Positions 2,848-19,440 of a stretch of DNA of 26,466 nt are shown here, piece after piece (the first letter of the stretch is position 1; every line of letters starts with the position of its first letter). A program made the translations under genes and the position numbers. The stretch is from the IMG/VR virus record IMGVR_UViG_3300005764_000071, positions 1 to 26,466 of that record; one strand, written 5' to 3'. This stretch comes from a virus (Duplodnaviria; Caudoviricetes). The notes under the pieces were generated by a model. The model was given only the letters and a program-made list of their open reading frames with translations, was not told where the DNA came from and ran no database searches.

Positions 2848-3207
2848 ATGAAGCTCTATGCAATACGAATGATCAAGGATCAGCAGCCGGTCGGCATCTA
2901 TTGGGCGGATGGGGTGGAGGACCTGGCAGACTCGTGCGACGAAACGGCACCGCCGCGGCTCTGCGAGTATGTGGAAATCGACAAGCCGGGAGCGGTCATT
3001 TTCGCAGGCGAATGCGGTTGGCAGATGGGCATCAATTGCGGAGAGAGTGCCAGCGACGTCGAGGAGCGAGCCGCCGATATCCACAACAGCGGGGAGATCG
3101 TTTTTGCCGACAGCCTCAACGAGGTCCTGTTCGATAGGGTCGAAGGATGGCGGCCATTCGGCAATGTGGCGTCGGTCTACGATCTCGCGGAGGAGAGCAA
3201 TGGCTAA
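2848..3207 (+). CDS. Acidic hypothetical protein (119 aa)
   Basis: Strong SD GGAGGAGGAG; stop overlaps integrase start. Confidence 0.8.
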   Translation: MKLYAIRMIKDQQPVGIYWADGVEDLADSCDETAPPRLCEYVEIDKPGAVIFAGECGWQMGINCGESASDVEERAADIHNSGEIVFADSLNEVLFDRVEGWRPFGNVASVYDLAEESNG

Positions 3208-4381
3208 GGGACTTTATCAGCAGCCGCGGTCGCCGTTCTGGTGGTACAGATTCCAGGTCGGCGGCCGACGCTTTCGCGGTTCGACCGGCAAGACTGTGGA
3301 GCGCGAGGCGCGGGTGGTCCTCGCCGACGAGCGGCAGGCACGCGAACACGAGGCATTACTGTACGCGCCCCTTAAGGGGCGCGCTGCCACGCTTACCTTC
3401 GATGAAGCCTGCCGGCACTATTGGGACGAAGTCGGCCAGCACCATGCCGGCGCTACCAAAACCGCCTGGTCGCTGAACTGGCTGCAGGCCGAGATCGGTG
3501 CTGAAACGCGCCTCGACGAAATCAATGGCGCGGTGGTCATGCGGCTCGTGAGCCGCCGGCGCGGCGAAGCGAAACAGTGTGCTGGCAAGGGCGGCAGGCT
3601 CGCGCATTCGACCGTCAATCGTTCAGTCACTGAGCCGCTGCGCAAGGTGTTGCGGCATGCAGCGAACGTGTATGAGGCCGAAATTTGTAGGATCGATTGG
3701 AAAAAATTCATGCTGCCGGAGCCGTCTGGCCGTGATCGCGAGTGCCAAATCGAGGAGGAGCGTGACCTTTTTGCGGGTTGCCGGGAGGATTACAAACCGA
3801 TCCTGCGCTTTGCGCTCTTGACCGGCCGTCGGCTCTCACATTGCGTCAACCTCAAATGGTCAGACATCGATTTCGGCAATCGTTTGATCACGTTTCGGGC
3901 ACTCAAGGGCGGTCTGGATAAACCGACCCCGATGCCAGAGGTGTTGCGCGAGTTGCTCTGGGATTTGCGCGGCCATCATCGCGAAGCCGTGTTCACGTAT
4001 CTCGTGCAAAAGGCGCGCGGAAGCCGCCGGGTCGGCACTCGCGAGCCGATCAAGCAAAGCGGGCTCTCGACCACTTGGCGAAACCTCAAACGCAAGGTGG
4101 GCGTGAAAAATCTCCGCTTCCATGACCTACGCCATACTGCAGCGTCACGTTTGTTGCGCACGCCTCACGGTAACTTAGCGCTCGTCAAGGAGGTGCTTGG
4201 CCATCGGCGAATCGAAACAACGATGCGCTATGCGCACGTGCAGAACACAGACAAGTTAGCGGCGATACAAGCGGCTGCAGAGGCAGCGCAGGCCGCCCTG
4301 GAAGCAGCGCAACTTCAAGCAGCGGTTGAAAAAGGGGTGGCCACACAAGTGGCCATACTGGCGGGGAAAAGCGAGAAATAG
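3200..4381 (+). CDS. int: Phage tyrosine integrase (393 aa)
   Basis: N-terminal arm-binding-like WWYRF...RGSTG; catalytic TGRR, K, HDLRH, LGH, TMRY motifs; GGAGGAG SD before ATG 3200. Confidence 0.96.
   Translation: MAKGLYQQPRSPFWWYRFQVGGRRFRGSTGKTVEREARVVLADERQAREHEALLYAPLKGRAATLTFDEACRHYWDEVGQHHAGATKTAWSLNWLQAEIGAETRLDEINGAVVMRLVSRRRGEAKQCAGKGGRLAHSTVNRSVTEPLRKVLRHAANVYEAEICRIDWKKFMLPEPSGRDRECQIEEERDLFAGCREDYKPILRFALLTGRRLSHCVNLKWSDIDFGNRLITFRALKGGLDKPTPMPEVLRELLWDLRGHHREAVFTYLVQKARGSRRVGTREPIKQSGLSTTWRNLKRKVGVKNLRFHDLRHTAASRLLRTPHGNLALVKEVLGHRRIETTMRYAHVQNTDKLAAIQAAAEAAQAALEAAQLQAAVEKGVATQVAILAGKSEK
4337..4358 (+). repeat. Left arm-type integrase-binding repeats (inside int 3' end)
   Basis: GTGGCCACAC (4337-4346) and GTGGCCATAC (4349-4358); same motif as the 4617-4637 pair. 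Confidence 0.75.
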
Positions 4382-6062: not shown

Positions 6063-7829
6063 TCAGCCATCGTGCCTAATCTTGCCGACGAGCTCGTGGT
6101 CAGCCACGTCGGTTGGATTGCCGGTCGTGACGGTCACCGCAACGCCGCCTTTAGCGCGCACGATTATCTCGACCTCGGGCGCATCTTCGCTCGGCTCGGC
6201 CTCGACAACTTCCGGCGCTTTGACCACAACATCGCCGGCGACCGCGACGGCGATGTCGACCGTCGGAGCGTGCGGCTCCGGCCCTTCCGGCTCTTCCGGC
6301 TCGCCCGGCCCCGGCTCAAGCGGAGGATATGCTTCGACCAGGCCTTGGACCTGCGAGAGCAAATCGCACACGCGCTGCTCAAGGGTCACCTCCCTCCGAT
6401 TGAGCGGCCCCCAATGCGCCCGCCGCAGCCGCACGCCCACGCCGGTCATCAGCACGGCGAACGCCGGACAGTATTTCGCCAGCCATTGGTAATAGGTGCC
6501 GAGGCCGGTGCCATAGGTTTCGACCTCCGCAGCCTTGATCGGCACGTCGATGGCGAAGCTCTCGCGCAGGCCGTTTGGATCGGCACGGTATTCCTCGAAA
6601 AGCTTTTTAATCTCATTCGAAGCAGTGCTGAGATTCCACGACGCTTGAAACAAACCTGCCTCGCACGTGTCTGCCGTGGTGTTCTGTGCCCCCGGGTCCT
6701 TGCCCTTCCAATGGTTACCGGTCGATTCGCGCATGCCCAAGCCGACGAGCAGCGCGAATAAGTGCCGCAATGTATCGAGCCCGGCCTTGTCGTTGCGCAT
6801 GCCAAGCTTGGCGAATTCAGCCTTGTAATGCGTCAGCGCGTCCTTGGTGGGATCGCCGGTTTCGGCCATCGCCATGATGGTGGCAGCACCATCGCCTCGG
6901 TTATAGCGCTCGACCGCGAGCGCAAACGTCTTGGCCATGCCGAGGTAATAGCCACCCGGCGCGCGCCCGCGATTCGGCCAAGTGATCCCGTTCACGCCGC
7001 TGCGGATCACCGCTTGGTCGATGGCGCCCTCGAGCTCCTCGGCGATGCCGTCGTCGCCGGCATCGATGCGAAGCTCGAGCTCGTCCAGCAGCCGCCACGT
7101 CGTCGCGCCAACAACGCCGTCGGCGCTCACGCTGTGGGCACGTTGAAACGCCTTCACGCCCGCTTCAGTGGTCGGGCCGAAATCATTGTCATTCGGCAAC
7201 CCGAGGATGGTTTGGACTTTGCCAACATGCGCATTCTTGTCGCCGCGCTTGACCACCGGGCGCTGGCCGGGCGGCGGTTCCGGTGGCGGTGGCGTTGTCG
7301 GCACGCCGCCGATCGCCTCGGCGATGCCAGCGGCGATGCGAGAAAAATTCGTGCGGTAGAGGTCGGCGTCGATCTTGGCATCAACGAAACAGACCTCGAG
7401 CAGGATGGCGTTGGTGAGACCGTTGAGGAAGGCGAGATTATTGCGGACCTTTGCCCCTCTGTTCGTAAGCGTTGCGGCCTTGCCAATAGCTTGCGAGACC
7501 TTGCTCGCGAGCGGCTGGTTGCGCTTGTAGCAAACCTCGACGCCCATGTTGCGGGTGGTCGTCGGCTGGAAGGCGTTGAAGTGGATCGAAACGTCGAGCG
7601 AGCGCGTCTGCTTTTTGTGCCAGCTTACGATCGTCGAGAGGTTGGCACTGACGGTCTTGCTTGTGTCGTCATTGAAAGTGCTAACCGAATGTCCGGTGCC
7701 TCTAAGAATGCGCGCGAGCTCGGCGAGAAGGCGGCGGGCCTCATCGACTTCGTCGAGCCCCCATCCGGCCGGGCCTTTTGCCCCTCTGACAAACTTGCCG
7801 TGACCCGAGCTTAGCGCGAACGAGGCCAT
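6063..7829 (-). CDS. Modular endolysin: Amidase_3 + PG_binding_1 + lysozyme-like domain
   Basis: SSGHG, SIHFNA, LLEVCFVD amidase motifs; Pro linker; DNDFGPTTEAGVKAFQ...DGVVGATTW PG-binding; MRES...EAGLFQ lysozyme/transglycosylase-like motif. Confidence 0.9.
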   Translation of the reverse strand: MASFALSSGHGKFVRGAKGPAGWGLDEVDEARRLLAELARILRGTGHSVSTFNDDTSKTVSANLSTIVSWHKKQTRSLDVSIHFNAFQPTTTRNMGVEVCYKRNQPLASKVSQAIGKAATLTNRGAKVRNNLAFLNGLTNAILLEVCFVDAKIDADLYRTNFSRIAAGIAEAIGGVPTTPPPPEPPPGQRPVVKRGDKNAHVGKVQTILGLPNDNDFGPTTEAGVKAFQRAHSVSADGVVGATTWRLLDELELRIDAGDDGIAEELEGAIDQAVIRSGVNGITWPNRGRAPGGYYLGMAKTFALAVERYNRGDGAATIMAMAETGDPTKDALTHYKAEFAKLGMRNDKAGLDTLRHLFALLVGLGMRESTGNHWKGKDPGAQNTTADTCEAGLFQASWNLSTASNEIKKLFEEYRADPNGLRESFAIDVPIKAAEVETYGTGLGTYYQWLAKYCPAFAVLMTGVGVRLRRAHWGPLNRREVTLEQRVCDLLSQVQGLVEAYPPLEPGPGEPEEPEGPEPHAPTVDIAVAVAGDVVVKAPEVVEAEPSEDAPEVEIIVRAKGGVAVTVTTGNPTDVADHELVGKIRHDG

Positions 7830-7832
7830 CGT

Positions 7833-8075
7833 TTACCTCTGCGGTGGCGGTGCCGGATAGCAATTTGCCAAAAGCTCGCCGACGTATTTGCGATTCTCGT
7901 AGAGCAACTCCGTTTCTTTTTGCCGCTCTTGGTGTGCCACAACGCCCGCATAATAGAGATAGGCCAGCAAAAAGAAGTTCATCAACACCATCGCCAGCGT
8001 GAACGGCTGCGCTTTGAATGCGTCGATCAGGCTGCGCGCGGTTTGGCCAGCTTCCTCTGGGACGCCAGGATTCAC
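7833..8075 (-). CDS. Single-TM protein upstream of endolysin, possible lysis accessory
   Basis: PFTLAMVLMNFFLLAYLYY TM then charged helix; tight packing with neighbours. Confidence 0.75.
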   Translation of the reverse strand: MNPGVPEEAGQTARSLIDAFKAQPFTLAMVLMNFFLLAYLYYAGVVAHQERQKETELLYENRKYVGELLANCYPAPPPQR

Positions 8076-8078
8076 TTG

Positions 8079-8453
8079 TTACCCTTTGGCCGCGTTGTCA
8101 TGACTTGCATTCTCCAATTCCTTCAATCGCGCTGCTGGCGTCTCTGTTCCGATCTTGGTCTCTGGATCAGTTGTGTATCGCGGTGCTGCAAATGGCCCGT
8201 AGACGAGATGATGTGGTACGAAATTTGGGAACGGAATTTCATGCGGGAGTGGAGGCGGATAATCCGCATGATACTCGTCGGCGAGCGGCGCGCGTGGCGT
8301 GATTGCAGCACCGTCGCCGGGTGAACATGGTGGCGGATCGACGGCTGCGTCGGTCGGCCCCGGCGGTGCGATCTGCCACGCCGCGTGCGGCATCGGTGTC
8401 GGCGTTGTTAAAGCAGTCGACGGTGTTGGGTCTTTGCCGTTTCCATCAGTCAT
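8079..8453 (-). CDS. Pro-rich hypothetical protein (124 aa)
   Basis: GAGGTGA SD; fills gap between fibre and lysis genes. Confidence 0.7.
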   Translation of the reverse strand: MTDGNGKDPTPSTALTTPTPMPHAAWQIAPPGPTDAAVDPPPCSPGDGAAITPRAPLADEYHADYPPPLPHEIPFPNFVPHHLVYGPFAAPRYTTDPETKIGTETPAARLKELENASHDNAAKG

Positions 8454-8468
8454 TTTTGATCACCTCGC

Positions 8469-9896
8469 TTAACCGGGCACAACGATTGCACCGAGGCCGA
8501 ACACGCCGGGAATGGTACCGGGGATGGGGCCGGTTGCTTGGGACAGGTTGTGATAGAAAATCGAGTTGGTGTTGACGGCGTATTGCATTCCCGTGACCCC
8601 GCCCCAAGCATTGCTGCCGGGGCCGCCAAAAGTTGCCGCCGAGAGTGTGTTCATCCCGAGATATGCCGATACGCAATGAAAATTGTTGCTGATTAACATG
8701 CCTCCTATCAGGCCACCCCAAACGCCGCGTGACATGGTCACGGCGCCTGCGAGAGTATTGCCATTGCCCTGAAACCATGTGTTCGTACCTGGACTTTCGT
8801 CAAAGGCGAGAAGACTGTCCCGAATATCAATAAAATATCCCAACGGATTTGAAGCGAGTGCCTCGAAAGCGCAATTTCGAGTAGCGAGAGTTGTGTTATG
8901 TCCAACGAGTAGCGATCGCGCGTTCTGGCCTGCATTCATTAAAAGCATGTTTATGCCAGTTAACACGACGTTGTTGCAGCCCATGAAGGCAAGTGCGGTC
9001 CAGATACTTTCGCCAACGTAATACCTACTGAGAATGCGATAATCCCATCGCGATCCGCCACCCCACCCACCCGCGTCGCTTCCGCCGCCTGTAATCGAGA
9101 GATTGCTTCCAAATGGACCAAGGTAGCCAGCTTCGTAATGTCCTGGAATCCCTAATTTGATATTTGCCGTAAACAGCGGCGTTGCCATGAATCGCTCGCC
9201 CACGCTGCGAAACGCGCCATCAATCGTTCTGAAAGCCTTATCAGGTGTGTTACGCGTGCCGTCACCAGTCGCGTCGTTGCCGTCCGTCCTTACCCAGAGG
9301 TCAATTCCTCCTGGTCGAAATTCTGGCGGGATGCGTCCGATGATGTACCAGGCACCATCAAAAAACGCCGCCATAAAAGGTTTGAGCGGAAGTAAATCGC
9401 CGGGTTTGCATTCCGTGCCATCGTGTCTAAAAAGCGGCACATACCCCAAGCCATTCATGTTGAGTCGCACATAACCCTGATTGTAATCAGTGTCCGGCGG
9501 CATGCGCGGGACAAATGTGCAGGTCATAAAATCGGTGTAGCAAGGCGGCGGTGGATCGACGCGGAAAGTAAAGTGCCAAGGGTTCTGTTGAATGAGCATC
9601 GCAGCATGCGGCAGGCCGCGCTGGATCAGATAGCGGACGGCAGTCTCGGCATTTTGTAACGACGATGCACGGTAGCCGAGACCGGCGCGATCGGCGATCG
9701 AGGCAATCTCGCTGATCAGCGAGTTGATCACATGCGGCCGAATGCGGACGTCGCAGGCGTTGCCATAATACAAAGCATCAGTATCGACCGGCAGTCTGTG
9801 CCGATGTAGAAACGCCTGCGCCGGATAGGTCGGCAAATTGGGATTGGCGGGCAGACCACCATCAAAGTCGAGCGGGAAAATGCCTCGGCCGTTCAT
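8469..9896 (-). CDS. Tail spike/fibre: baseplate-anchor domain + putative beta-helix receptor-binding domain
   Basis: N-terminal GIFP..DGG.P...LYYG..C...NSLISE; LWVRTDGNDATGDGT...AFRTIDGA typical of beta-helix starts; Gly/Asn-rich beta C-terminus. Confidence 0.8.
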   Translation of the reverse strand: MNGRGIFPLDFDGGLPANPNLPTYPAQAFLHRHRLPVDTDALYYGNACDVRIRPHVINSLISEIASIADRAGLGYRASSLQNAETAVRYLIQRGLPHAAMLIQQNPWHFTFRVDPPPPCYTDFMTCTFVPRMPPDTDYNQGYVRLNMNGLGYVPLFRHDGTECKPGDLLPLKPFMAAFFDGAWYIIGRIPPEFRPGGIDLWVRTDGNDATGDGTRNTPDKAFRTIDGAFRSVGERFMATPLFTANIKLGIPGHYEAGYLGPFGSNLSITGGGSDAGGWGGGSRWDYRILSRYYVGESIWTALAFMGCNNVVLTGINMLLMNAGQNARSLLVGHNTTLATRNCAFEALASNPLGYFIDIRDSLLAFDESPGTNTWFQGNGNTLAGAVTMSRGVWGGLIGGMLISNNFHCVSAYLGMNTLSAATFGGPGSNAWGGVTGMQYAVNTNSIFYHNLSQATGPIPGTIPGVFGLGAIVVPG

Positions 9897-10495
9897 GCGC
9901 TCACCTTATAAAACCGTCCGGGGACAGGAGGCGCGTTAGCGGGCAATGGACCAAGTGCGGTCGGCGTGAACACTTCGCCGAAGTAACAGCACATAAATGG
10001 CACATTAGCGCGGAGCTCACCGGCAGCCATCTCCGCGCCGGTCTTAGAGAGCAGCGGCGCCTCACCGAGGCGGTTCACGTTGATGCGAACTAGGCCGACG
10101 TTCGCTTGATCGGGCACGAGTGTGAGCGTCATGAAATCGGTATATTTGACCGGTGCAGGGTCGAGCTCAATTGTGTAGAGCGTTGGCGCGCTCTGTCGAA
10201 TCATAACGCCAGAGCGCCCGCGCTCGATCAGATACATAATCGCGGTGACGAGATTTCGCAGCGAGTCAGCACGGTACGCGAAGCCAGCGCGATCGCACAC
10301 CGCTATAACTTCGGAAATGATTGAGTTGAGAACAGGCGCACGAATGCGGATGTCGCAGCCCATGCCGTAATAGAGCGGCGAGGTGTCCGGCGGCATAGCG
10401 TAGTGATCCGGCAGAAACGCCTGCGGCGGATTCTCCGGCGTTTGCGCGTTTGGCGGAATGCCACCGTCCCACGACGCTGGGAAAATGCCGCTCAT
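9893..10495 (-). CDS. Short tail-fibre anchor paralog (200 aa)
   Basis: Colinear similarity to first ~190 aa of 8469-9896 (YTDFMT.T.VP, N.G.VR.N.N.LG..PL). Confidence 0.8.
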   Translation of the reverse strand: MSGIFPASWDGGIPPNAQTPENPPQAFLPDHYAMPPDTSPLYYGMGCDIRIRAPVLNSIISEVIAVCDRAGFAYRADSLRNLVTAIMYLIERGRSGVMIRQSAPTLYTIELDPAPVKYTDFMTLTLVPDQANVGLVRINVNRLGEAPLLSKTGAEMAAGELRANVPFMCCYFGEVFTPTALGPLPANAPPVPGRFYKVSA

Positions 10496-11007
10496 AATGC
10501 TGCTGCCCTTCGCCAGATGTCGTCGACCTGCGCCACCGTCATGCCCATGACTTCGCCGAACTTATCGACTAGCGGATGATTGCGCTCGAATTCGTTCGCG
10601 CCGATCAGCAACATCTCAGCTGCGAATTTTTGATCCGGCGGTAGGGTATCGAGACCTTGCTGCATGCGCGGCGGTATGGTGCCGCGCATCGCCTCCAAAG
10701 CTTCGTCGTAGCTGATCATGCCATAGAGCGCTGCAGCCTGGAAAAATTGTCGGCGCGAGATGATCTGCGGCACAGCCGTTTTCGTCGGATCATGCGCTGC
10801 GATGACGGCGTCGAGGATGCGATTCTGTTCAGTAGTTAGATTCTCGCGGGCGAAAATTTGCCCGTCCGGCGTCCACGAAAGTGGCAAGTTGATGAGTCCG
10901 GCGGCGACGAGTTCCCCGGCAAAGTTCGGCCCAAAAACCGGCGGCGGCTCCGCCATGGGCTGGAACGGAAGGGGTGAGGTTTCGGGCGGCGGCGGCGGTC
11001 CTGGCAT
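10492..11007 (-). CDS. Putative tail-fibre assembly/accessory protein
   Basis: PQIISRRQF...EFERNHPLV...QVDDIWRRAAAL pattern common in small genes following fibre genes. Confidence 0.65.
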   Translation of the reverse strand: MPGPPPPPETSPLPFQPMAEPPPVFGPNFAGELVAAGLINLPLSWTPDGQIFARENLTTEQNRILDAVIAAHDPTKTAVPQIISRRQFFQAAALYGMISYDEALEAMRGTIPPRMQQGLDTLPPDQKFAAEMLLIGANEFERNHPLVDKFGEVMGMTVAQVDDIWRRAAAL

Positions 11008-11020
11008 TGGTCTCTTTTCC

Positions 11021-12754
11021 CTAGGTGAACAGCAGCGCTGATGCAGCGAGGCGAAACATCGACCAATTCATTCCACCAGCTACGCCACCCAATGGCGTGA
11101 AGTAGTGGTAACCCTCAGGCACCGGAGTCACCGCAAAACCGCCCAACGGTATGCCTTCCTGTAGAGTGTTGGTGCCTTGCAGCGTGGATGGCATTACGGG
11201 ATTCGGGCCGTCGATGCCGATCATCGCGAAAGCGCTGCCGTTGGCTGCTCCTCCTGGCACGGTAACAGGCCAAGCCGAGCCCGTTAACCCAACCGGAATC
11301 GTGGCATCCCAACTCACGAACTCGATTCGTCCTTCAGGATTGATCTCTATCGCATTTGCAGCCGAGGTTGTCGCACCGTCCGTATGCGGGCCTGCTAGTC
11401 CTTTCAAGCTGCGATTGAACCATGAGGCGACGAAGCGCTGGCGCAGATCGTCAGCAAATTGCGCAGAGATAGTCGTTCGTATCAACCCGATTACAGTTTG
11501 GTTATCGTCCGGCGGCATGAGAGGCGATGACGACAAAGGTAATTCTGGCGGGAGAATGTAGCCAACATCCGCTGCTGTGGCTCCCCCGAATTGCGGTGGC
11601 TGAATCAGGCGCGGAACGTAGCGCGAGTGCCCGACTGTCAAGCGCGCGCTGCAGATGTTGCCAGCATGACCATAATCGGTATTGAGCACCGCATGTCCGA
11701 GGAGGAAGGGCTGCACAAGGTCGGAAACCGCAACCGGAGATGTGGCAAGGTTTCTAACCGCGCCGTCGAGCGCTGCAAAAAGTTGGTTTCCGCGACGGAA
11801 TAGGGCAAAGTGATGCCACGTTGGCGGCTGGGCAAGAGGCCGCAGACCGATAGCAGCATTGGTAACGCCGAGGCCGGGAAATCGAACATAGAGCCAAGGC
11901 GCGCCAGCAAATTGCACCTCCGCGCGCCACACGTTGCCAGGAGCTTGAACGAGCGTGGTCCAGTTATTCGTGTTGGTGAAATAGCATTCGAAGCAAAAGT
12001 CTTGTGTGCCGAGCGCCAAATGCGGACCTGCGGGCACCTCAAGCCGTCCGCCGGCCTGAAACCATGGGCCTATTGTGAGCGGGAACAGAATGCTCGTTTG
12101 CATTCCCGGCGGGCCGCTGGTGCTGTAGCGCGGCTGAAAGCCGGCCGCCGTCTGGGCATTCCCGATTGTGAGGTTGTTCGGTCCCTGATCAAGATACGTC
12201 ATCGTCCCATCAGGAGCGTTGTCATTGCCGATCAGAAAGCGAACCTGATTCCATAACGGATCACCACGCGCGATGATTTCTGTACCTTCATTGCCGGGAG
12301 TCGTGCTCGCCATGTGAGAGGCATCTGTAAACGGTACAAAGTTCGGTGCTAATTCGTCACCGCTAGGACCGGGTACCGTCGTCAAGCACACGTAATAGGT
12401 TCTGTTGGCAGAAAGATTACCCACCACGCCGTCAACCAGCACATTAGTGTTGGGAATAGCAATGCCATCTGGCGGGAGAAACCAAACGTGGCCGTTATGC
12501 TTGACCTCCGACAGGCCGCGGAACCCCGAAAATCTCAACTCAGTCGGCGATATGTAAGACAGCAAGCCACCGAGCAACGTAACTGTTGAAGTGGGGCCGC
12601 GACCAATCTCGCGGCGGCCGAGTGCATCAATCGATGTTGGAACGCCGACCCACAGTCGTGGCGGATCACTTGCCATCTCGACCGAAAGTTGCCCCGGTAG
12701 CAATCCTACTGGCGGATTATCCGGCGTCGCCGTGCGGCGGATTTGAATCGGCAT
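11021..12754 (-). CDS. Receptor-binding fibre protein with ConA/LamG-like lectin domain
   Basis: Mtd_N-like start MPIQIRRT...LLPGQL; LGTQDFCFECY...WHHFALFRRGNQLFAALDG...GNICSARLTVG LamG-like motifs. Confidence 0.8.
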   Translation of the reverse strand: MPIQIRRTATPDNPPVGLLPGQLSVEMASDPPRLWVGVPTSIDALGRREIGRGPTSTVTLLGGLLSYISPTELRFSGFRGLSEVKHNGHVWFLPPDGIAIPNTNVLVDGVVGNLSANRTYYVCLTTVPGPSGDELAPNFVPFTDASHMASTTPGNEGTEIIARGDPLWNQVRFLIGNDNAPDGTMTYLDQGPNNLTIGNAQTAAGFQPRYSTSGPPGMQTSILFPLTIGPWFQAGGRLEVPAGPHLALGTQDFCFECYFTNTNNWTTLVQAPGNVWRAEVQFAGAPWLYVRFPGLGVTNAAIGLRPLAQPPTWHHFALFRRGNQLFAALDGAVRNLATSPVAVSDLVQPFLLGHAVLNTDYGHAGNICSARLTVGHSRYVPRLIQPPQFGGATAADVGYILPPELPLSSSPLMPPDDNQTVIGLIRTTISAQFADDLRQRFVASWFNRSLKGLAGPHTDGATTSAANAIEINPEGRIEFVSWDATIPVGLTGSAWPVTVPGGAANGSAFAMIGIDGPNPVMPSTLQGTNTLQEGIPLGGFAVTPVPEGYHYFTPLGGVAGGMNWSMFRLAASALLFT

Positions 12755-13104
12755 CAGTCGTACTCTCCGTCGTCAACCGCCAGCTTGACCCATGCGCTAC
12801 CACTGCGCAGGCTCAGCTCGTTGGTTGTGCTATTCCACCACAACGAGAACGGCGGCGGATTGGCGGGAGCGCTGGACGCGACAATCGGCACGTGCACCCA
12901 ATCGCCGTTGGAACGCCCATACACCGCATCGTCTTCGGCGTCCTCGACGGCAGTGCCGACAAACAACTCCTCCACGCCGCTCGGCGTGCCGATCCACCCG
13001 CGGACAGGACGGTCATTCAAACCCCAAGCGGTTTCACCCTCCGCCAACGTTGCCGGCGGCTTGTCCGAGTCCGTCGTGCGTTTAAGCTTGATCACTTGCG
13101 TCAA
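12754..13104 (-). CDS. Short fibre adaptor protein (116 aa)
   Basis: VIKLKRT..PATLAEGE N-domain, foldon-like DAEDDAVYGRSNGDW, WWNSTTNEL repeat, C-terminal DDGEYD. Confidence 0.8.
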   Translation of the reverse strand: MTQVIKLKRTTDSDKPPATLAEGETAWGLNDRPVRGWIGTPSGVEELFVGTAVEDAEDDAVYGRSNGDWVHVPIVASSAPANPPPFSLWWNSTTNELSLRSGSAWVKLAVDDGEYD

Positions 13105-14480
13105 TAAGTGCCCCCGTCGACAAGAGCGACCTCGAGCGGATCACCGCTCGTTCCGTCGCCAACGATCGACACGTCATCAACGGCAACCGTGCTCAAGGCA
13201 TTCGCCGCAAGCGCGAAGATTCCGGCCAAAGCCGTCTGCACATTCGTCCATGGCTGTGAATCGAGGGTCGTGATGCCGACGTTCGCGGCAGTTATAGCCA
13301 CGTGATACAGCGGAACGTGTATCCACGCCGAGCCGGTGGATACGATCCAGTCTCCGGCCTCCATCGCGACTGCCGGAGCTGCAGGAGCACCAGTGCCGGC
13401 CACTGTGACGATGACAAACCAGCCTTGATTCGTGCCGGATGCTGCGGGTAGTGGTTGGCCAACCGTGAGCGTGCCGGTGTCGGCCGACACGACCTCGTTG
13501 TCGTTGGCGTCGTAATTGCCGACAAAGCGCAACGCGCCGGCGATCGCGCTAAGCTGGCTTGTGAGCGTATCGACGTCGGCAACCAACTCATTGATTGCAG
13601 GGACAACGGTCTTTGCCGTTGTGTCGAGGTTGGCCGCGGCGTCGCCCATCTGTGAGCGCAAGCCCGCGCTGTCGATTGGGAAAACAGTGTTGGTGCCGGT
13701 GGCGATCTGTGCGGTTGTCGCCATCGTGACGCCGAGCGGGGTGGCGCTCTGGCCGTCGCCGGTGATCGGAGGATCGGTGGCGACGCCCGCGAAACCGGGT
13801 AGGGTTGCTGCTGTCCAGGCGCCACTGATGTAGACTTGCGGTCCCGTGCTCGACCACCAAATGTCACCCTCGACAGGATTGGCTGGCGCGGTCCCTCCTG
13901 TACCGCTGCGATTGCCGGTAACAGCAACCCAGGCTGTCCCGTTCCAGACTGAGAGCACGTTGGTCGTGGAGTTGAGCCACAGCTTTCCGATTGATGGTGT
14001 GCTGGGCGCAGCCGCTGCAACGGTCACGTTGGGAATGATCCAAGCGGTCCCATTCCAAACGCGCAGCTCGTTATTCGTTGTGTTGTACCAGACATCGCCA
14101 GCGTCCGGCGTACCGGGCGCGGTCGGGCCGATCTCGACGCCTTTTGATGGCGCTATCCAATCCAAGGCACCTGCGCCATCGGTTGACAGAACGTCGCCAT
14201 CGTTGCCGCCGCCGATGTCTAGGTGAGTCGGGTCAGCGGCAATGATTAAACCGGTAAAAGTCTTATTGCCGGCGACAGATTGATCGCCGCTGACCTCGAC
14301 TTGGCGAGCAGCAGAAACAAGGGTCCTGACCGCAGCGCCGTCGCCGATGTAGAGGTCGGCAACGCCAGCGGCGCTGATCGCCACCGCGGGCTCGCCCGCG
14401 ATGACTTGTCCGGGACCTGTGCCGGATGCCGGTGCGCCGGTACCCGGGATTCGTCTCTTGAACTGAATGATCTGTGGCAT
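13101..14480 (-). CDS. Tail fibre protein (459 aa)
   Basis: IIQFKRR N-motif; three P-x-x-G-x-x-W...W repeats; LDTTAKTVVPAINEL; C-terminal VDGGTY; AGGAGG SD. Confidence 0.85.
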   Translation of the reverse strand: MPQIIQFKRRIPGTGAPASGTGPGQVIAGEPAVAISAAGVADLYIGDGAAVRTLVSAARQVEVSGDQSVAGNKTFTGLIIAADPTHLDIGGGNDGDVLSTDGAGALDWIAPSKGVEIGPTAPGTPDAGDVWYNTTNNELRVWNGTAWIIPNVTVAAAAPSTPSIGKLWLNSTTNVLSVWNGTAWVAVTGNRSGTGGTAPANPVEGDIWWSSTGPQVYISGAWTAATLPGFAGVATDPPITGDGQSATPLGVTMATTAQIATGTNTVFPIDSAGLRSQMGDAAANLDTTAKTVVPAINELVADVDTLTSQLSAIAGALRFVGNYDANDNEVVSADTGTLTVGQPLPAASGTNQGWFVIVTVAGTGAPAAPAVAMEAGDWIVSTGSAWIHVPLYHVAITAANVGITTLDSQPWTNVQTALAGIFALAANALSTVAVDDVSIVGDGTSGDPLEVALVDGGTY

Positions 14481-14495
14481 TTCCGTTGCCTCCTG

Positions 14496-14759
14496 CTAGT
14501 AGATTCCCCCATCAACTCGCGGCATCGACAGGGGGTCTGCTGCCGTGCCATTGCCAGTGAGCGTGTGATCGGTTGTTACGAACGTAAGATCGCCAGGCGG
14601 CCCCTGCGGCCCGGGCTCTCCCTGCGGCCCTGGCGGCCCAATGATCCAACTGCCAAGGTTGGGTCGGGATGGCCGCAGCGGCGGAATGCAAATCGGTGCG
14701 GGCGGCGGACAGCGTGTGTAACAGCCGGCCTCATCGCGCATGTAGAACGCGCTGCTCAT
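14496..14759 (-). CDS. Small collagen-repeat fibre protein (87 aa)
   Basis: ATGA-coupled start MSSAFY; Cys/Pro N-terminus; GPPGPQGEPGPQGPPG; LTGNGTAADPL; C-terminal VDGGIY. Confidence 0.8.
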   Translation of the reverse strand: MSSAFYMRDEAGCYTRCPPPAPICIPPLRPSRPNLGSWIIGPPGPQGEPGPQGPPGDLTFVTTDHTLTGNGTAADPLSMPRVDGGIY

Positions 14760-15457
14760 GTGTACTCTCCATCGTCGATAATGCGCACCCACGAGGCATT
14801 CATTCGGCCATACAGCGTGTCGTCGTAAGGAGCCTCTTGGACGTCGCCGCCACCAGGTCCACCGCCACCGCCCGTTGTGTCGACGTAATATTTGGTCGTA
14901 GCCTCCATCGACAGGACCGGTTGACGTGCGAGAATCAGCGGGCCGGTCATCGTGTCGCCGCTGCGGTTAATCTTGCGCTCGTCAACGAGCGCGATCATGG
15001 CTGAATACGCAGCGGTGATCGCTGCAACCTCGCCATCGACAAAGGCGCGCAGCGCGGTGTTGAGCGCGCTAATTTGATCTTCGACCCATCGTCGCGTCGC
15101 GGCCTCAAGCGGTGTCTGCGGATCACGGGCCAGGAAAAGCGGCCCTTCCATCGTGTCGCCGGCGCGGTCGACCTTGAGGTCAATCGCGCGATAGATGGCG
15201 GCAATCACGTCGCGCAGCCCGGCGCCGAGGTTGTCAACGCGGTTGGCGTTCCAGGGAATGTCGAGGCCGATGTCCTTGAGCGCCAGGAGCTCGCTGAGGA
15301 CCGAATTCATTGCACAATCGGGAAGCGTGGTTGCGCAATCGTTGCCGAAGTACAGCGGTCCCTCGCCGATCACCGGATGGGTAGGACTAAAACCGTTGCA
15401 AACGTTGCCACCGGGCGGCTTGCCACCCTTGTCCAGCGGCGGAAAGATTCCCGACAT
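14756..15457 (-). CDS. Proximal tail fibre protein (Mu gp49 position)
   Basis: MSGIFP anchor domain; two GDTM.GPL.LAR.P...EA.T..[WY]V repeats; foldon-like EAPYDDTLYGRMNASW; C-terminal DDGEYT; follows gp48-like gene. Confidence 0.85.
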   Translation of the reverse strand: MSGIFPPLDKGGKPPGGNVCNGFSPTHPVIGEGPLYFGNDCATTLPDCAMNSVLSELLALKDIGLDIPWNANRVDNLGAGLRDVIAAIYRAIDLKVDRAGDTMEGPLFLARDPQTPLEAATRRWVEDQISALNTALRAFVDGEVAAITAAYSAMIALVDERKINRSGDTMTGPLILARQPVLSMEATTKYYVDTTGGGGGPGGGDVQEAPYDDTLYGRMNASWVRIIDDGEYT

Positions 15458-15509
15458 CGGCCTAACCCTTTCCGGTAAGGCCGTTTTATACGATCCGGGA
15501 TGAAACGGC
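15458..15509 (-). promoter_or_regulatory. RBS-sequestering hairpin with competing alternative stem
   Basis: CGGCCUUACC-GGAAAG-GGUUAGGCCG immediately 5' of AUG 15457; GCCGUUU/AAACGGC stem shares its 5' arm. Confidence 0.4.
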
Positions 15510-15529
15510 TAGGCGGCGAGGGGTGGGGC

Positions 15530-17323
15530 TCAAGCGATGCAGTCAGCCGGACAGCATTCATAGATGCAGTAGAGCGGCCCGCGCGGAAGTATCTGCGGCA
15601 GGAGCCACCAGAACGCCTCATACATCTCGCGGTCGTGAGGAAGATGGTACGCCGGCGGCGTCGGCAAATTACAATTTTCGGGGATAATGATGTCGCTCGG
15701 GCAAACGATGACGTTGAGCGACAGCGGCGAGTTTTCGTTGGGTGGCGCGCAGGCGACCTCGCCCATGGCCTGACCGCCCTTTGCCTGCTCGTAAGCGCCG
15801 CCGAGTTGCGCCTCAGGGTCAGGCGGGCAAGGATCGCGCGGCGGGCAATGCTGTGCGTCGCGCGCCAGCGACCACCAACCGGGGAGCGGTGCGTCACTGT
15901 TGGCGGTCTCGTTGAAGGCGCCGGCGTAGCGTAGCTTGATGTCGGCGCCCATGCGGCTGGCGATGCTGGTCAAATACTCCCAATTGACCGCCGTTTGGTT
16001 GTAGCGCAATTGCGTGATGAAGCAGATCAGGAATATGAGGATACGATCGGACCAGCCTGACCCACACGGGTCCGGATGTTTGATGCCCATGCGCGTGGCC
16101 CATTGGCGAATCAGCCGCTTAGTGGTGCACGGGTCGAGCTCGAGCAGCATCTCGCAGAGCGCGAGCACAACCTTGTAAGCCGCGGCGCCGAAGGTATCCA
16201 CGACGGCGAGTTGCGGTGCCACCGGGTCGACCTCGCACGGGATCACTTCCATTTCGCAGCAGCTACCGAGGACCATTTGCTCGCAGCCGACGCGGGCGCA
16301 ACCGACCGTGACGGCGCCGTATTGCGGCGGCACCTCGGCAATCGGCCGAGCCGTGTTGTTATAGGGGTCGCCCTCAGGCAAAAGCGAGCGGATCTGACAG
16401 ATGAAAGCAAACTCATCGATCTGGCACGGGAGCGGGCCACAACAGCCGTCCGGGATGTAGCAAAGAATGCCGGGAACGTCGGGACCGCTCGTGCTCTTTA
16501 CGTGTGGCGGCGGCGGGCATGGCCGCTCGTCCGGCGTTGGGGAGATGACTAGGACCAGCATCATGGTGCCAGTGCCGCCTGCATTCCTGGCCTCGAGCTG
16601 GACGTGGTAAGTGCCCTGCTCTCTCGGTGTTCCCAAAATGCTGCCGGTGTGCGTATTGATGGCGAGGCCATCGGGCAAGCCAGTTGCATAGAATTGCGTC
16701 GGCGCGTTGCGCGCGGTGATGACGTAAGTGAACGGCAGACCGACCGTGCCGGTGGCCGTGTCCGGGCTGGTGATTTCAGGAATGGGCGCCGGCGGCAAAG
16801 CCGGTTGCAACGTCAACGCCAGCGTCGCCGTTGCGGTGCCGACAGCATTTGTCGCACTGATCGGAATATGCCAAAGGCCGGGGTCGCTTACCGGCACTCC
16901 TGAAATCACACCGGTCGTTTCGTTGATGGAGAGACCGGCCGGCATCTCGGTGGCCTCGAAGGTGATGGGCGGATCGCCGGTTGCGGTAATTGTGTAAGAA
17001 AACCACACACCTTGCCTGGCGGTAGCGGTCAGCGGGCTCGTGATGACGGGCAACCCGACCAGCGGAGCCGGCTCGATCTGCAGGCGCAACGTCGTGGTGC
17101 CGGTGCCGTCGGCGTTGGTCGCCTCAAGCACGACATCAAAGACGCCGTCCTCCTGCGGTGTGCCGGAGATAGCGCCGGTGAACGTGTCGACGCTGAGCCC
17201 GAGCGGCAGGCCGGTCGCATCGAAGCTCATCGGGCTGTTCGTGGCAGTGATGGTGAACTCGAACGGCGTGCCGACCGTGCCAGCTGCCTCGAGAAATTGC
17301 GGGATGACGGGAATGTCGTTCAT
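15530..17323 (-). CDS. Baseplate wedge protein (Mu gp48-like) with three N-terminal He_PIG-type Ig-like domains
   Basis: Three GLP.GL.[IV]...TG.I.G.P-like repeats; then SLLPEG, ELDPCTT..LI.QW...MG, YLTSIASRMG gp48-like motifs; follows baseplate J. Confidence 0.8.
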   Translation of the reverse strand: MNDIPVIPQFLEAAGTVGTPFEFTITATNSPMSFDATGLPLGLSVDTFTGAISGTPQEDGVFDVVLEATNADGTGTTTLRLQIEPAPLVGLPVITSPLTATARQGVWFSYTITATGDPPITFEATEMPAGLSINETTGVISGVPVSDPGLWHIPISATNAVGTATATLALTLQPALPPAPIPEITSPDTATGTVGLPFTYVITARNAPTQFYATGLPDGLAINTHTGSILGTPREQGTYHVQLEARNAGGTGTMMLVLVISPTPDERPCPPPPHVKSTSGPDVPGILCYIPDGCCGPLPCQIDEFAFICQIRSLLPEGDPYNNTARPIAEVPPQYGAVTVGCARVGCEQMVLGSCCEMEVIPCEVDPVAPQLAVVDTFGAAAYKVVLALCEMLLELDPCTTKRLIRQWATRMGIKHPDPCGSGWSDRILIFLICFITQLRYNQTAVNWEYLTSIASRMGADIKLRYAGAFNETANSDAPLPGWWSLARDAQHCPPRDPCPPDPEAQLGGAYEQAKGGQAMGEVACAPPNENSPLSLNVIVCPSDIIIPENCNLPTPPAYHLPHDREMYEAFWWLLPQILPRGPLYCIYECCPADCIA

Positions 17324-17385
17324 GCTCGAATATACCCGCCGATCGCCATGACGATAACGACCAACACGATGGCGATGACATCCAT
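17320..17385 (-). CDS. 21-aa hydrophobic micro-ORF
   Basis: MDVIAIVLVVIVMAIGGYIRA; starts 5 nt after J stop, ATGA overlap with gp48-like start. Confidence 0.55.
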   Translation of the reverse strand: MDVIAIVLVVIVMAIGGYIRA

Positions 17386-17390
17386 CCTAG

Positions 17391-18581
17391 TCATTGTGCT
17401 TCATCCGACACCGAGACATCGCCGAGGATCGGCAGGTAACCGCAATCAATCACCAGGTAGGCCGCGTCCTCGCGTCGCAAGCCCTCCTCGACCTGGAACG
17501 ATACACCGCTGAAACACGGCTCGCCGGCGGCGGTGTAGACGGCGCTGCGGACGTGTTCCTTGCATATCCGACTCCCGACGCAAAACATGATGCGAAAATA
17601 GGTCTGCAGGGCCTTGGTGATGCGCTCTACGGCAACGTTGGCACAATGGCGGAAGCAGTGGCCCACGATATTGATCTTGGCGGGCCTGGCGCAGACGTAA
17701 TGGCCGGTGATCCCGACCGGCGCGATGCCCTGGCCCTTGCCGTTCTCGCTGCCGAACATCCAGCGGTCCATCTCGTTGATGACCTCAAGCGGCGGCACGC
17801 CGTAAGGCGCGGTGACGGCGTCGCCATAGACGCCCTCCATCATGGGGAAGATTTCGACGTGGGCCGGATCGCAGCAACCCTCGCATTGATCGGTGCAGGC
17901 ACGAGTCACACCGGGATAGCGCAGCGTTTGCTCGATGTACCATCGCTCGTTCGTGCTCAACACGCCGGAGGCCTCGGCCGCAAGCACGCGCGCGCGTAGC
18001 TGCTCGCAAGTCTCATTTGAGGTGCCGCCGATGAGGCCGTTGCCGATGACGATGGCATCGCCGTCGATGCCGGGAAGCGTGCTTGAAACCGTGAGCGGAG
18101 AACCTGGCACCAAGTTGAACTCGGCGCCGCCGATGGCGGCGACGACCCGGAGCGCGGCACGGCCGGAGAGGTCGAGCATGGTCGGATTGAAAGTGACGCC
18201 GGGGTCAAGCTTGTACTCGCGCGAGGCCTCGCCGACGAAGCGAATGTTGGAGGGGATAGGCGCGCGCGGCTCGCCGCTGATCGCAACGTAGCCCTTGGCG
18301 CGGGTCGCCGCCCGCATGTTGATTCCGTGCCGTGCGCTGTATTTGACGAGGTTGTCGCAACACATGCTGGCCGGGTCGTTCTCGCGCAGCGCTTGCGTCA
18401 CCCAACCGTGCATCAAATTTGTCGCGCCCGCCATGACGAACGCAAGCACGTCCTCGGTGGTCATCGGCAGCACGGGAGCGCCGCCGAGGAGGCGCTTGCT
18501 CATCTCGGTCGCAAGTTGGTCGTGAAGCTCGGCGATGCTCGGCCTCGGGAGGGTACAACTAATGTCGGTCATCACCGCCAT
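17391..18581 (-). CDS. Baseplate J / Mu gp47-like wedge protein
   Basis: RPSIAEL, GINMRAATRAKG.V, GG...ET.EQLRARVL, YPGVTRA motifs; synteny. Confidence 0.92.
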   Translation of the reverse strand: MAVMTDISCTLPRPSIAELHDQLATEMSKRLLGGAPVLPMTTEDVLAFVMAGATNLMHGWVTQALRENDPASMCCDNLVKYSARHGINMRAATRAKGYVAISGEPRAPIPSNIRFVGEASREYKLDPGVTFNPTMLDLSGRAALRVVAAIGGAEFNLVPGSPLTVSSTLPGIDGDAIVIGNGLIGGTSNETCEQLRARVLAAEASGVLSTNERWYIEQTLRYPGVTRACTDQCEGCCDPAHVEIFPMMEGVYGDAVTAPYGVPPLEVINEMDRWMFGSENGKGQGIAPVGITGHYVCARPAKINIVGHCFRHCANVAVERITKALQTYFRIMFCVGSRICKEHVRSAVYTAAGEPCFSGVSFQVEEGLRREDAAYLVIDCGYLPILGDVSVSDEAQ

Positions 18582-18745
18582 TACGCTGTCTCCGGGGGCT
18601 CGAGCTCCTCGTGCTCGGCTTCAATCCAATTGTCGACCGCGTCTTGAATGACCTGCGCGAGTTCGCCGGCGCGATCGCGCAGCGCTTTCGGCTCGTCTAT
18701 CAGGAAGTGCTGCGCCAGCTCTAAAGCAGCGATGTCGTAGCTCAT
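18581..18745 (-). CDS. Small acidic hypothetical protein (54 aa)
   Basis: MSYDIAALELAQHFL...; GGAGG SD, ATGA and TAATG coupling on both sides. Confidence 0.7.
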   Translation of the reverse strand: MSYDIAALELAQHFLIDEPKALRDRAGELAQVIQDAVDNWIEAEHEELEPPETA

Positions 18746-19440
18746 GCGGCCTCCGCAGTTGGCACCGAGCGCGGGTAGCGCTTGCCGAGCGGGTCGATGT
18801 TGGCAATGTTCTTGTACTCTTCCCAAAGGTAGCGCGAGTCGGGCATGGCCGAGCCTTGCACGGTGATGTTCACGTCGCTGGCGCCGGGGCCTTTGATGGT
18901 GATGTCCAAGCGCATGACTCGCCGCGAGATGTACCACGGGACGATGTCGATTTTCGAGGCAATGCCCCATGCTACAAGGTAGCTGATCGCCTCAAATGCG
19001 AAGTCCTTGGCTTGCATCAGCGTTTGGTTGGTGACGTGGTTCCACTGCAGCGTCCACAGCTTCGAGCCGCTGCGGAAGGCGGAACCGCGCGAGGTGACGG
19101 ACGTGTTGCCGCGGAAGGCATCGGCCCACCAACCACCAAGGCGCGGGTGCTTGATGTATGGCGGATGCTCGCCGGAATCGCGATCACCGCATTCAACCTG
19201 GCCGCGGGTGAACAGCTGCTTGATGACCCAACCGCGCAGCCAATCATTGCGGTCGAGCGTGCCCATTTTGTTGACGTGCAAATTGGGATCGCCCTCTTGA
19301 ATGCCTTCGCAGTTGGGCGGCCGGCATAGCGGGATGCGGCGCGAGGCAATCGGCGGCTGGAACAGCGGATAGCTTCGCGTCCGGCAGCGTGGCGGTGGTG
19401 GCGCGCAAATGTGTTGCGGCGGGTTATATTGAACGATCAT
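18742..19440 (-). CDS. Mu gp46-like baseplate protein
   Basis: LFT...GGWWADAF...GSKLWTL...AKDFAFEAI.YLV.WGIA motifs. Confidence 0.85.
   Translation of the reverse strand: MIVQYNPPQHICAPPPPRCRTRSYPLFQPPIASRRIPLCRPPNCEGIQEGDPNLHVNKMGTLDRNDWLRGWVIKQLFTRGQVECGDRDSGEHPPYIKHPRLGGWWADAFRGNTSVTSRGSAFRSGSKLWTLQWNHVTNQTLMQAKDFAFEAISYLVAWGIASKIDIVPWYISRRVMRLDITIKGPGASDVNITVQGSAMPDSRYLWEEYKNIANIDPLGKRYPRSVPTAEAA

What the first reader, a model, noticed from the sequence alone, without database searches (positions are those of the whole stretch)
11021..15457. Plug-and-socket chain of fibre proteins with complementary terminal motifs
Seen: four consecutive genes end in the same acidic-aromatic motif (IIDDGEYT, RVDGGIY, LVDGGTY, AVDDGEYD); three consecutive genes start with the same basic motif (IIQFKRR..IAGE, VIKLKRT..LAEGE, IQIRRT..LLPGQ). 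The baseplate-anchored and collagen proteins have only the C-motif, two middle proteins have both, and the lectin-bearing protein has only the N-motif, as expected for base, extenders and tip. Known: the N-motif resembles the Mtd N-terminal domain of Bordetella phage BPP-1. Inference: the D-[DG]-G-x-Y tail docks into the basic N-domain, giving an interchangeable connector that could build variable-length, combinatorial or self-polymerising fibres. I know no description of this as a general system.
Basis: partly seen in the sequence, partly recalled or inferred. Interest (0 to 1): 0.85.

Follow-up and report, generated by a model that had tools for sequence, protein, structure and literature searches.

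The report
T4-type peptide joints chaining phage fibres
Four neighbouring tail-fibre proteins of this phage end in a short acidic peptide that is predicted to clip into a small cap domain at the start of another fibre protein, the same sequence pair found where phage T4's gp36 meets gp37, so multi-protein fibres are likely built as ordered snap-together chains whose wiring may be partly readable from sequence.

Summary
Observation confirmed: four genes end in D-[DG]-G-x-Y and three begin with an Mtd_N/gp37-like domain. The pairing is general. In viral contigs sampled by the N-motif alone, 46 of 77 ORFs directly upstream end in the motif, against 2 of 383 other same-strand ORFs. A 3+3 complex prediction docks one tail on one N-domain (score 0.91, best control 0.59; the mark was met by 116 of 157 solved and 2 of 215 mismatched pairs, roughly applicable). 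In three relatives the base is fused to a tip and has no terminal plug. T4 gp36/gp37 carry the same pair, so this is a variant of a known joint; ten paper searches found no motif-level description. The scan noted it before on at least four other genomes. Plugs look position-specific (an extender's incoming plug equals its own in 4 of 37; socket Trp co-varies with loss of the plug aromatic), which argues against free interchange or self-polymerisation. One relative has one base and five socket-only tips. Binding is predicted, not measured.

The parts
14756..15457 (-). A: root 1. N-terminal baseplate anchor like Milano short tail fibre gp31, two gp36-like repeats, C-terminal plug; no socket
   Evidence: hhalign to Milano gp31 prob 84.7, E 6.7e-6, Cys41 aligned to Cys38; weak match to T4 gp36 149-186; no socket score
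14756..14782 (-). plug of A (IIDDGEYT + stop)
   Evidence: replaced at this point by a fused tip in L370, L371, L373
14496..14759 (-). B: root 2. Cys-rich N-terminus of unknown attachment site, short collagen run, plug; no socket
   Evidence: homologue P0163 (73%) keeps three Cys and ends IDGGTY
14496..14519 (-). plug of B (RVDGGIY + stop)
   Evidence: last 29 aa 45% identical to those of C
13101..14480 (-). C: long extender, socket plus plug
   Evidence: socket 17.5 bits on leave-out profile; C-like proteins ending DGGTF precede a D/E-like socket in L383, L384, L385, L387
14310..14480 (-). socket of C
13101..13124 (-). plug of C (LVDGGTY + stop), the peptide docked in the complex prediction
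12754..13104 (-). D: short extender or adaptor, socket plus a plug with the same five residues as A's
   Evidence: homologue P0002 ends MDDGVY
12940..13104 (-). socket of D
   Evidence: 24.4 bits on leave-out profile; model pLDDT 86.9, nearest viral models are gp37 N-termini; docked
12754..12780 (-). plug of D (AVDDGEYD + stop)
11021..12754 (-). E: tip, socket only, with a probable LamG-like insert at about 11648-12019
   Evidence: region 165-387 is 28% identical to a clear LamG domain on the wedge protein of L370
12590..12754 (-). socket of E
   Evidence: 32% identical to D's over 43 aa; 59-75% to six sockets of L368 and L369
9893..10495 (-). G: second protein with the same baseplate anchor, no plug or socket
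   Evidence: 33% to A over 99 aa, 48% to H
8469..9896 (-). H: third protein with the baseplate anchor, no plug or socket
   Evidence: blastp to Milano gp31 E 1e-4
10492..11007 (-). F: conserved 171-aa protein after the tip gene, possibly an assembly chaperone (inferred from position only)
   Evidence: PHROGs of unknown function; 61% homologue after the tip genes in L369
15530..18581 (-). Cys-rich baseplate wedge (Ig repeats) and baseplate J genes that the anchors would bind
   Evidence: J is 28% identical to those of phages 7-7-1, OLIVR4 and Milano; 24 and 15 Cys

Best explanation
The C-terminal D-[DG]-G-x-Y peptides are likely plugs predicted to add a parallel beta-strand to the first strand of the trimeric Mtd_N/gp37-type cap of another fibre protein, joining trimers head to tail as at the T4 gp36-gp37 joint. 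Steps: (1) motifs, gene order and co-occurrence are shown. (2) Three plugs on one socket trimer, with the socket's Lys/Arg strand against the plug's Val-Asp-Gly-Gly, is predicted for the C-to-D pair only. (3) A's attachment to a Milano-type baseplate wedge, probably by a disulfide, is inferred from homology. (4) The wiring is inferred: most likely two finite fibres sharing one tip, A-E on the baseplate and B-C-D-E rooted elsewhere through B's cysteines, with D converting C's plug into A's plug type (about 45% for this exact wiring). (5) Plug variants probably set the order and stop the chain, so length is encoded by genes and not by polymerisation.
For: N-motif-only sample: 46 of 77 ORFs directly upstream of a socket gene end in the plug, against 2 of 383 other same-strand and 0 of 440 antisense ORFs; plug-only sample: the next gene has a socket in 77 of 109. 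Complex: score 0.91, best of 3 controls 0.59, three runs agree in 100% of contacts, partner pLDDT at least 94; the mark was reached by 116 of 157 solved and 2 of 215 mismatched pairs, counts only roughly valid for this 3+3 job; contacts lie on plug residues 22-30 (plus residue 9) of 30 and socket residues 1-10, 14, 16, 25. Natural fusions: 3 of 5 A homologues aligned continue into a tip domain exactly where the plug starts; in L370 that continuation matches E from residue 58, just after the socket. The other two (L368, L369) keep DDGE[VY] and are followed directly by E-type sockets. T4 gp36 ends QDFGYY and gp37 scores 52 bits on the socket profile; gp36 C-end binds gp37 N-end (PMC9603124, PMC3004832, passages). 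Co-variation: aromatic plug before 70 of 84 Trp-less sockets but 1 of 35 Trp-bearing sockets. Not a ribosome-binding-site effect.
Against: No binding was measured. Only one plug-socket pair was modelled, and an unrelated 30-mer scored 0.59 against the same socket trimer, so the model is permissive there. 32 of 109 plug genes have no socket gene right after them and 9 of 78 longer loci have none at all. 14 of 84 Trp-less and 14 of 35 Trp-bearing sockets have no recognisable plug upstream. E-like sockets follow DGGTF plugs in other phages, so the DDGEY-to-E specificity is not established. L368's plug ends in Val, so the aromatic is not invariant. Sampled contigs are related to each other, so counts overstate independence. 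B's attachment site is unknown.
Confidence: 0.85

Rival explanations
1. Same connector, but promiscuous: any plug fits any socket, so C and D homopolymerise and fibres have variable length and mixed composition.
For: C and D each carry both halves. D and E sockets are 32% identical. E-like sockets follow both DDGEY and DGGTF plugs. L369 has one base with two tandem plugs and five socket-only tips, which must share or compete. A self-polymerising base-(extender)14-tip neck fibre exists in cyanophage A-1(L) (PMC10966104, section 8).
Against: An extender's incoming plug equals its own in 4 of 37; incoming plugs start D-G-G for 26 of 28 tips but 19 of 37 extenders. 69 of 118 loci with both halves hold one root, one extender and one tip. 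In the window each extender's outgoing plug differs from its incoming one. The A-1(L) proteins carry neither motif.
Confidence: 0.2
2. Single chain A-C-D-E from the baseplate, with B an alternative or vestigial root feeding C.
For: A is the only plug donor with a recognisable virion anchor; B is 87 aa with one close homologue.
Against: In the two closest unfused relatives A directly precedes E-type sockets with no extender, A and D share the same plug, and root-extender-tip cassettes like B-C-D occur on their own in other phages.
Confidence: 0.25
3. The tail motif works inside its own protein (trimer-closing or chaperone-binding signal) and is only genetically linked to Mtd_N genes because fibre genes cluster.
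For: Fibre genes cluster; some plug genes have no socket nearby (9 of 78).
Against: The motif is enriched in the directly upstream gene and not in other genes within 3 kb (1 of 247), co-varies with the next gene's socket class, and is lost where base and tip are fused.
Confidence: 0.08
4. The D-G-G codons are kept because they act as the Shine-Dalgarno site of the overlapping next gene.
For: In the window the plug codons of A, C and D lie at ribosome-binding distance from the next start; where they do so elsewhere, GGA/GGG codons are common.
Against: 61 of 70 plugs sampled lie out of that range, with free synonymous codons, and the plug is as frequent at gaps of 15 nt or more (44 of 52) as at overlaps (9 of 12). 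B's plug has a separate AGGAGG downstream.
Confidence: 0.03

Closest known systems
Phage T4 long tail fibre, gp36-gp37 joint
   Same: gp36 ends in a D-x-G-x-Y peptide and the next gene, gp37, begins with a socket scoring 52 bits; trimer joins trimer, C-end to N-end (PMC9603124, PMC3004832, passages). A also shares a weak repeat match with gp36.
   Different: T4 uses it once (gp36-gp37) in the genes examined; here four plugs and three sockets, two roots, a Mu/Milano-type baseplate. The passages read describe the joint at protein level only, not the peptide.
Bordetella phage BPP-1 Mtd (Pfam Mtd_N, PF18454) and streptococcal phage hyaluronidase HylP N-terminal cap
   Same: A profile of the socket family finds only these in the PDB by sequence (E 1e-8 to 3e-3). 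Bbp9, directly upstream of mtd, has three D-x-G-x-hydrophobic motifs, one terminal; two Mtd trimers per fibre are reported (PMC2408619, passage).
   Different: Solved only as free trimers among the hits; the window's sockets are too diverged to hit Mtd_N; no diversity-generating retroelement seen in the window; Mtd-type sockets go with a different plug class.
Cyanophage A-1(L) neck fibre gp82-(gp81)14-gp80
   Same: Base, extender and carbohydrate-binding tip from three adjacent genes, joined head to tail (PMC10966104, section 8).
   Different: Different modules: no socket motif or terminal plug in the three proteins; its extender self-polymerises, which the counts here do not favour.
Agrobacterium phage Milano / 7-7-1 short tail fibre gp31 and disulfide-linked baseplate
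   Same: Anchor of A, G, H is homologous, with the wedge-linking Cys aligned; baseplate J 28% identical.
   Different: No socket or plug found in the first 50 kb of 68.5 kb of Milano; Milano has one such anchor gene there, the window three.

Membership tests
T4 gp36-gp37-type joint | N-terminal domain homologous to that of gp37 | tested here: met
   One leave-window-out profile scores gp37 52 bits and D, C, E 24, 17.5, 6.8; D's model is nearest to gp37 models, probability 1.0, TM 0.65, E 0.04
T4 gp36-gp37-type joint | Upstream gene ends in D-x-G-x-aromatic | tested here: met
   gp36 QDFGYY; A-D
T4 gp36-gp37-type joint | Trimer-to-trimer binding through these two parts | tested here: inconclusive
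   Predicted for C-D only, 0.91 against 0.59; not measured; T4's own pair was not modelled
Pfam Mtd_N (PF18454) | Score above the family's cut-off | tested here: not met
   None of the window's three N-domains matches at E up to 1; nor does T4 gp37 1-100. 32 of 54 aligned rows match at E up to 0.1: related, not a formal member
Pfam Mtd_N (PF18454) | Same fold as the Mtd/HylP cap | tested here: inconclusive
   HylP is the top Foldseek row but E 0.39; VIA Z 2.8 (HylP) and 2.7 (Mtd), no row at Z 5 or more; profile-level homology E 1e-8 to 3e-3
A-1(L)-type self-polymerising bead fibre | Homologous head-to-tail module | tested here: not met
   gp80-gp82 show neither motif on reading
A-1(L)-type self-polymerising bead fibre | Extender present in many copies per fibre | not testable with these tools
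   Needs stoichiometry; indirect counts argue against
Milano gp31-type baseplate-anchored fibre | N-terminal anchor with the wedge-linking cysteine | tested here: met
   Prob 84.7, E 6.7e-6 over 47 columns, Cys41 to Cys38; Cys38 bonds to wedge proteins (PMC10811340)
LamG / concanavalin A-like lectin tip | Laminin_G_3 match above cut-off in E | tested here: inconclusive
   18.6 bits against cut-off 27.6; homologous stretch in L370 scores 47.8; single-sequence model unusable

The most novel reading that the evidence does not exclude
The T4 gp36-gp37 joint is one instance of a widespread, sequence-readable assembly code for phage fibres: orthogonal plug-socket classes (a socket Trp standing in for the plug's aromatic), position-specific plugs that order and end the chain, adaptor proteins such as D that convert one plug type into another, and bases that display a mixture of alternative tips (five in L369) on one virion or across a burst.
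Probability: 0.45. Interest if true: 0.8.

Novelty: new variant of a known kind. Interest (0 to 1): 0.62.

Why it matters
How separately encoded fibre proteins find each other is known for few phages, and the T4 gp36-gp37 joint has long been described only at protein level. A nine-residue plug and a 50-residue socket make it directly testable with peptides. The socket profile matches 24,500 cluster representatives, mostly unnamed proteins, so the rule would assign many uncharacterised genes to fibre positions (root, extender, tip). It would also explain how receptor-binding tips are swapped as whole genes, and it offers a small trimeric snap connector for protein design.

Tried and rejected
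PDB sequence searches with D, E and the first socket profile found nothing real. Fold searches of the monomer socket gave no PDB match at E 0.001 or Z 5; weak rows in phage virions (crAss001, 7-7-1, A-1(L)) were not resolved, so a solved like complex is not excluded. Single-sequence model of E was unusable (pLDDT 31.5). No relatives of D or C by peptide-pattern scan of viral contigs. tblastn of a 56-aa socket against cultured phages gave no match, a sensitivity failure, since T4 has one. A-1(L) neck fibre checked as a precedent and rejected as non-homologous. Shine-Dalgarno explanation rejected. No long DNA repeats suggesting a shuffling system in 8000-17400. Strict DDGEY-to-E specificity could not be shown. 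In bacterial and archaeal genomes only 12 of 120 pattern matches were true junctions against 102 of 124 in viral contigs. No expected value was obtained for the 4-of-37 count. The paper search was uninformative (its term matched mtDNA).
Full report
Setting. The window is the whole record held. Its right part is a minus-strand tail module of a contractile-tailed phage: tube, tape-measure-sized gene, hub, spike, wedge and baseplate J, fibre genes, endolysin; an integrase lies on the left. Baseplate J is closest to Agrobacterium phages 7-7-1, OLIVR4 and Milano at 28% (8 records matched), and the baseplate proteins are cysteine-rich like Milano's disulfide-linked ones.

Observation. Confirmed as written. 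I call the genes A (14756-15457), B (14496-14759), C (13101-14480), D (12754-13104) and E (11021-12754). A to D end in D-[DG]-G-x-Y, the plug; C to E start with I-[QK]-x-[KR]-R followed by G-[EQ], the socket. Only 5 of 324 stop-to-stop ORFs in the window end in a loose form of the plug, four of them A to D. A profile of 51 sockets from other contigs scores D, C and E at 24.4, 17.5 and 6.8 bits and does not score A or B.

Co-occurrence. A pattern for plug, stop and socket start found an estimated 620 stretches in viral contigs; 102 of 124 matches examined were real junctions carrying the unselected G-[EQ] motif. Since that pattern presumes the result, I sampled each half alone. By socket pattern only (estimate 5,900 stretches; 127 returned, flanks for 80): 52 of 113 profile-positive genes with an upstream ORF have a strict plug there. 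Within the flanked loci, 46 of 77 ORFs directly upstream of a socket end in it, against 1 of 247 other same-strand ORFs within 3 kb, 1 of 136 beyond, and 0 of 440 antisense. By plug pattern only (estimate 2,900): the next gene has a socket in 77 of 109 cases with enough sequence (8 of 117 dropped), and 69 of 78 loci of 4 kb or more hold one on that strand. The profile was trained on sockets that follow plugs, and contigs are related, so these are strong but not independent counts. The profile matches 24,500 of 1.84 billion representatives; 27 of the best 150 end in a plug themselves. In cellular genomes 12 of 120 matches were real.

Mechanism. Three copies of D's socket with three of C's last 30 residues scored 0.91 in a complex prediction, best of 3 controls 0.59; runs agreed in 100% of contacts, partner pLDDT at least 94. 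The mark was reached by 116 of 157 solved and 2 of 215 mismatched pairs, counts that hold only roughly for a 3+3 job with my own alignments. Contacts lie on the last nine residues (plus one) and mainly the first ten of the socket, in register 3:23, 5:25, 7:27, which I read as parallel strand addition, each plug touching two socket chains. The 0.59 control shows the model will also lay an unrelated peptide on this trimer with fair confidence. By sequence the PDB holds only free Mtd and HylP trimers of this family, so recall of a like complex is unlikely but not excluded.

Natural controls. Five homologues of A were aligned (L372, L378, L379 duplicate others). L370, L371 and L373 are 54-59% identical to A up to the plug and there run on into a tip domain; in L370 the continuation matches E from residue 58, so base and tip are fused with plug and socket both absent. 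L368 ends DDGEV and is followed by an E-type socket. L369 ends in two tandem DDGEY and is followed by five socket-only tips, the fifth split in two frames as read. Neither has B, C or D between A and the tip. Root, C-like extender and D/E-like socket occur as a cassette in L383, L384 and L385. B-C-D therefore looks like an insertion between A and E.

Specificity. Splitting sockets by a Trp a few residues after the Arg (a split chosen), the upstream plug ends in an aromatic for 70 of 84 Trp-less sockets and 1 of 35 Trp-bearing ones; 20 of those 35 have a plug with a small residue instead. That fits the Trp and the aromatic filling one site (inference). Among Trp-less sockets with a recognised incoming plug, it starts D-G-G for 26 of 28 tips but 19 of 37 extenders (Fisher p 3e-4, not corrected for kinship; 12 of 13 and 7 of 14 clusters), and equals the extender's own plug in 4 of 37. 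One root, one extender and one tip is the layout in 69 of 118 loci holding both halves, a count that includes overlapping and truncated loci. This points to ordered, finite chains. In the window, incoming and outgoing plugs also differ at C and at D, and A and D share theirs. I therefore favour A-E on the baseplate and B-C-D-E rooted elsewhere, at about 45%. Against strict specificity, E-like sockets follow DGGTF plugs elsewhere.

Anchors. A, G and H share an N-terminal domain homologous to Milano gp31, with A's Cys41 aligned to the Cys38 that bonds to wedge proteins. B has no such domain and no socket; its three cysteines are kept in its one close homologue, and its site is unknown.

Rival from DNA. 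The plug codons of A, C and D sit at ribosome-binding distance from the next start, but 61 of 70 sampled plugs do not, and their codons vary freely.

What is known. Earlier notes of this scan (eight shown, at least four genomes) describe the same system on other DNA and gave me the T4 lead, which I tested: gp36 ends QDFGYY, gp37 starts with a socket scoring 52 bits. PMC9603124 and PMC3004832 (passages) state that gp36's C-end joins gp37's N-end, without naming residues. BPP-1 Bbp9 carries three related motifs upstream of mtd; PMC2408619 (passages) reports two Mtd trimers per fibre. A-1(L) has a self-polymerising base-extender-tip fibre (PMC10966104, passages and section 8) built from other modules. 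Passages of PMC12796354, PMC10811340, PMC12143355, bioRxiv 10.64898/2026.05.12.724579 and 10.64898/2026.03.06.709160 do not describe the peptide; the last fits the T4 distal rod at low resolution, and its figures and supplements, which I could not see, may show the joint. Ten full-text searches found no motif-level description; subscription journals are largely outside that library.

Verdict. A real and widespread connector, a new variant of the T4 gp36-gp37 joint and not a new kind. This window adds a passing complex prediction, fusion controls, signs of a plug-socket code and a two-root layout. Binding, wiring and stoichiometry remain unmeasured. Interest 0.62.

Noticed in passing
L369:4161-11482: Close relative in which the base ends in two tandem plugs and is followed by five socket-only tip genes of at least two different architectures; the fifth is split across two frames as read.
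   Followed up: partly
window 8469-10495 and 14756-15457: Three paralogous baseplate anchors (A, G, H) in one phage; G is reduced to about 125 aa in L369 and L370, suggesting a spacer or cap that shares the fibre-binding sites.
   Followed up: partly
window 15530-17323; L369:1202-3676; L370:5436-7907: The wedge protein has three Ig repeats before a Cys-rich core; relatives add about 230 aa in front, a LamG domain in L370 that is homologous to the insert in tip E. L372 has only the core.
   Followed up: partly
L001:4599-6125 (BPP-1 Bbp9): Two internal and one terminal D-x-G-x-hydrophobic motifs, which might account for the two Mtd trimers reported per fibre.
   Followed up: no
window 17391-18581, 15530-17323, 18742-19440: Cysteine-rich baseplate like Milano's disulfide-locked one, in a phage that also carries an integrase (2909-4381).
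   Followed up: partly
model of window 12940-13101: Best fold matches by VIA-align were collagen XV and XVIII trimerisation domains (Z 4.7, rmsd 2.7, 48 aligned; Z 4.1), too low to call.
   Followed up: no
L414, L462, L470, L406, L430, L460: True plug-socket junctions in bacterial genomes, among them Paenibacillus and Clostridia records, possibly prophages or tailocins.
   Followed up: no
window 6063-7829: 588-aa endolysin: amidase, peptidoglycan-binding domain and a further domain matching a PHROG of unknown function.
   Followed up: no
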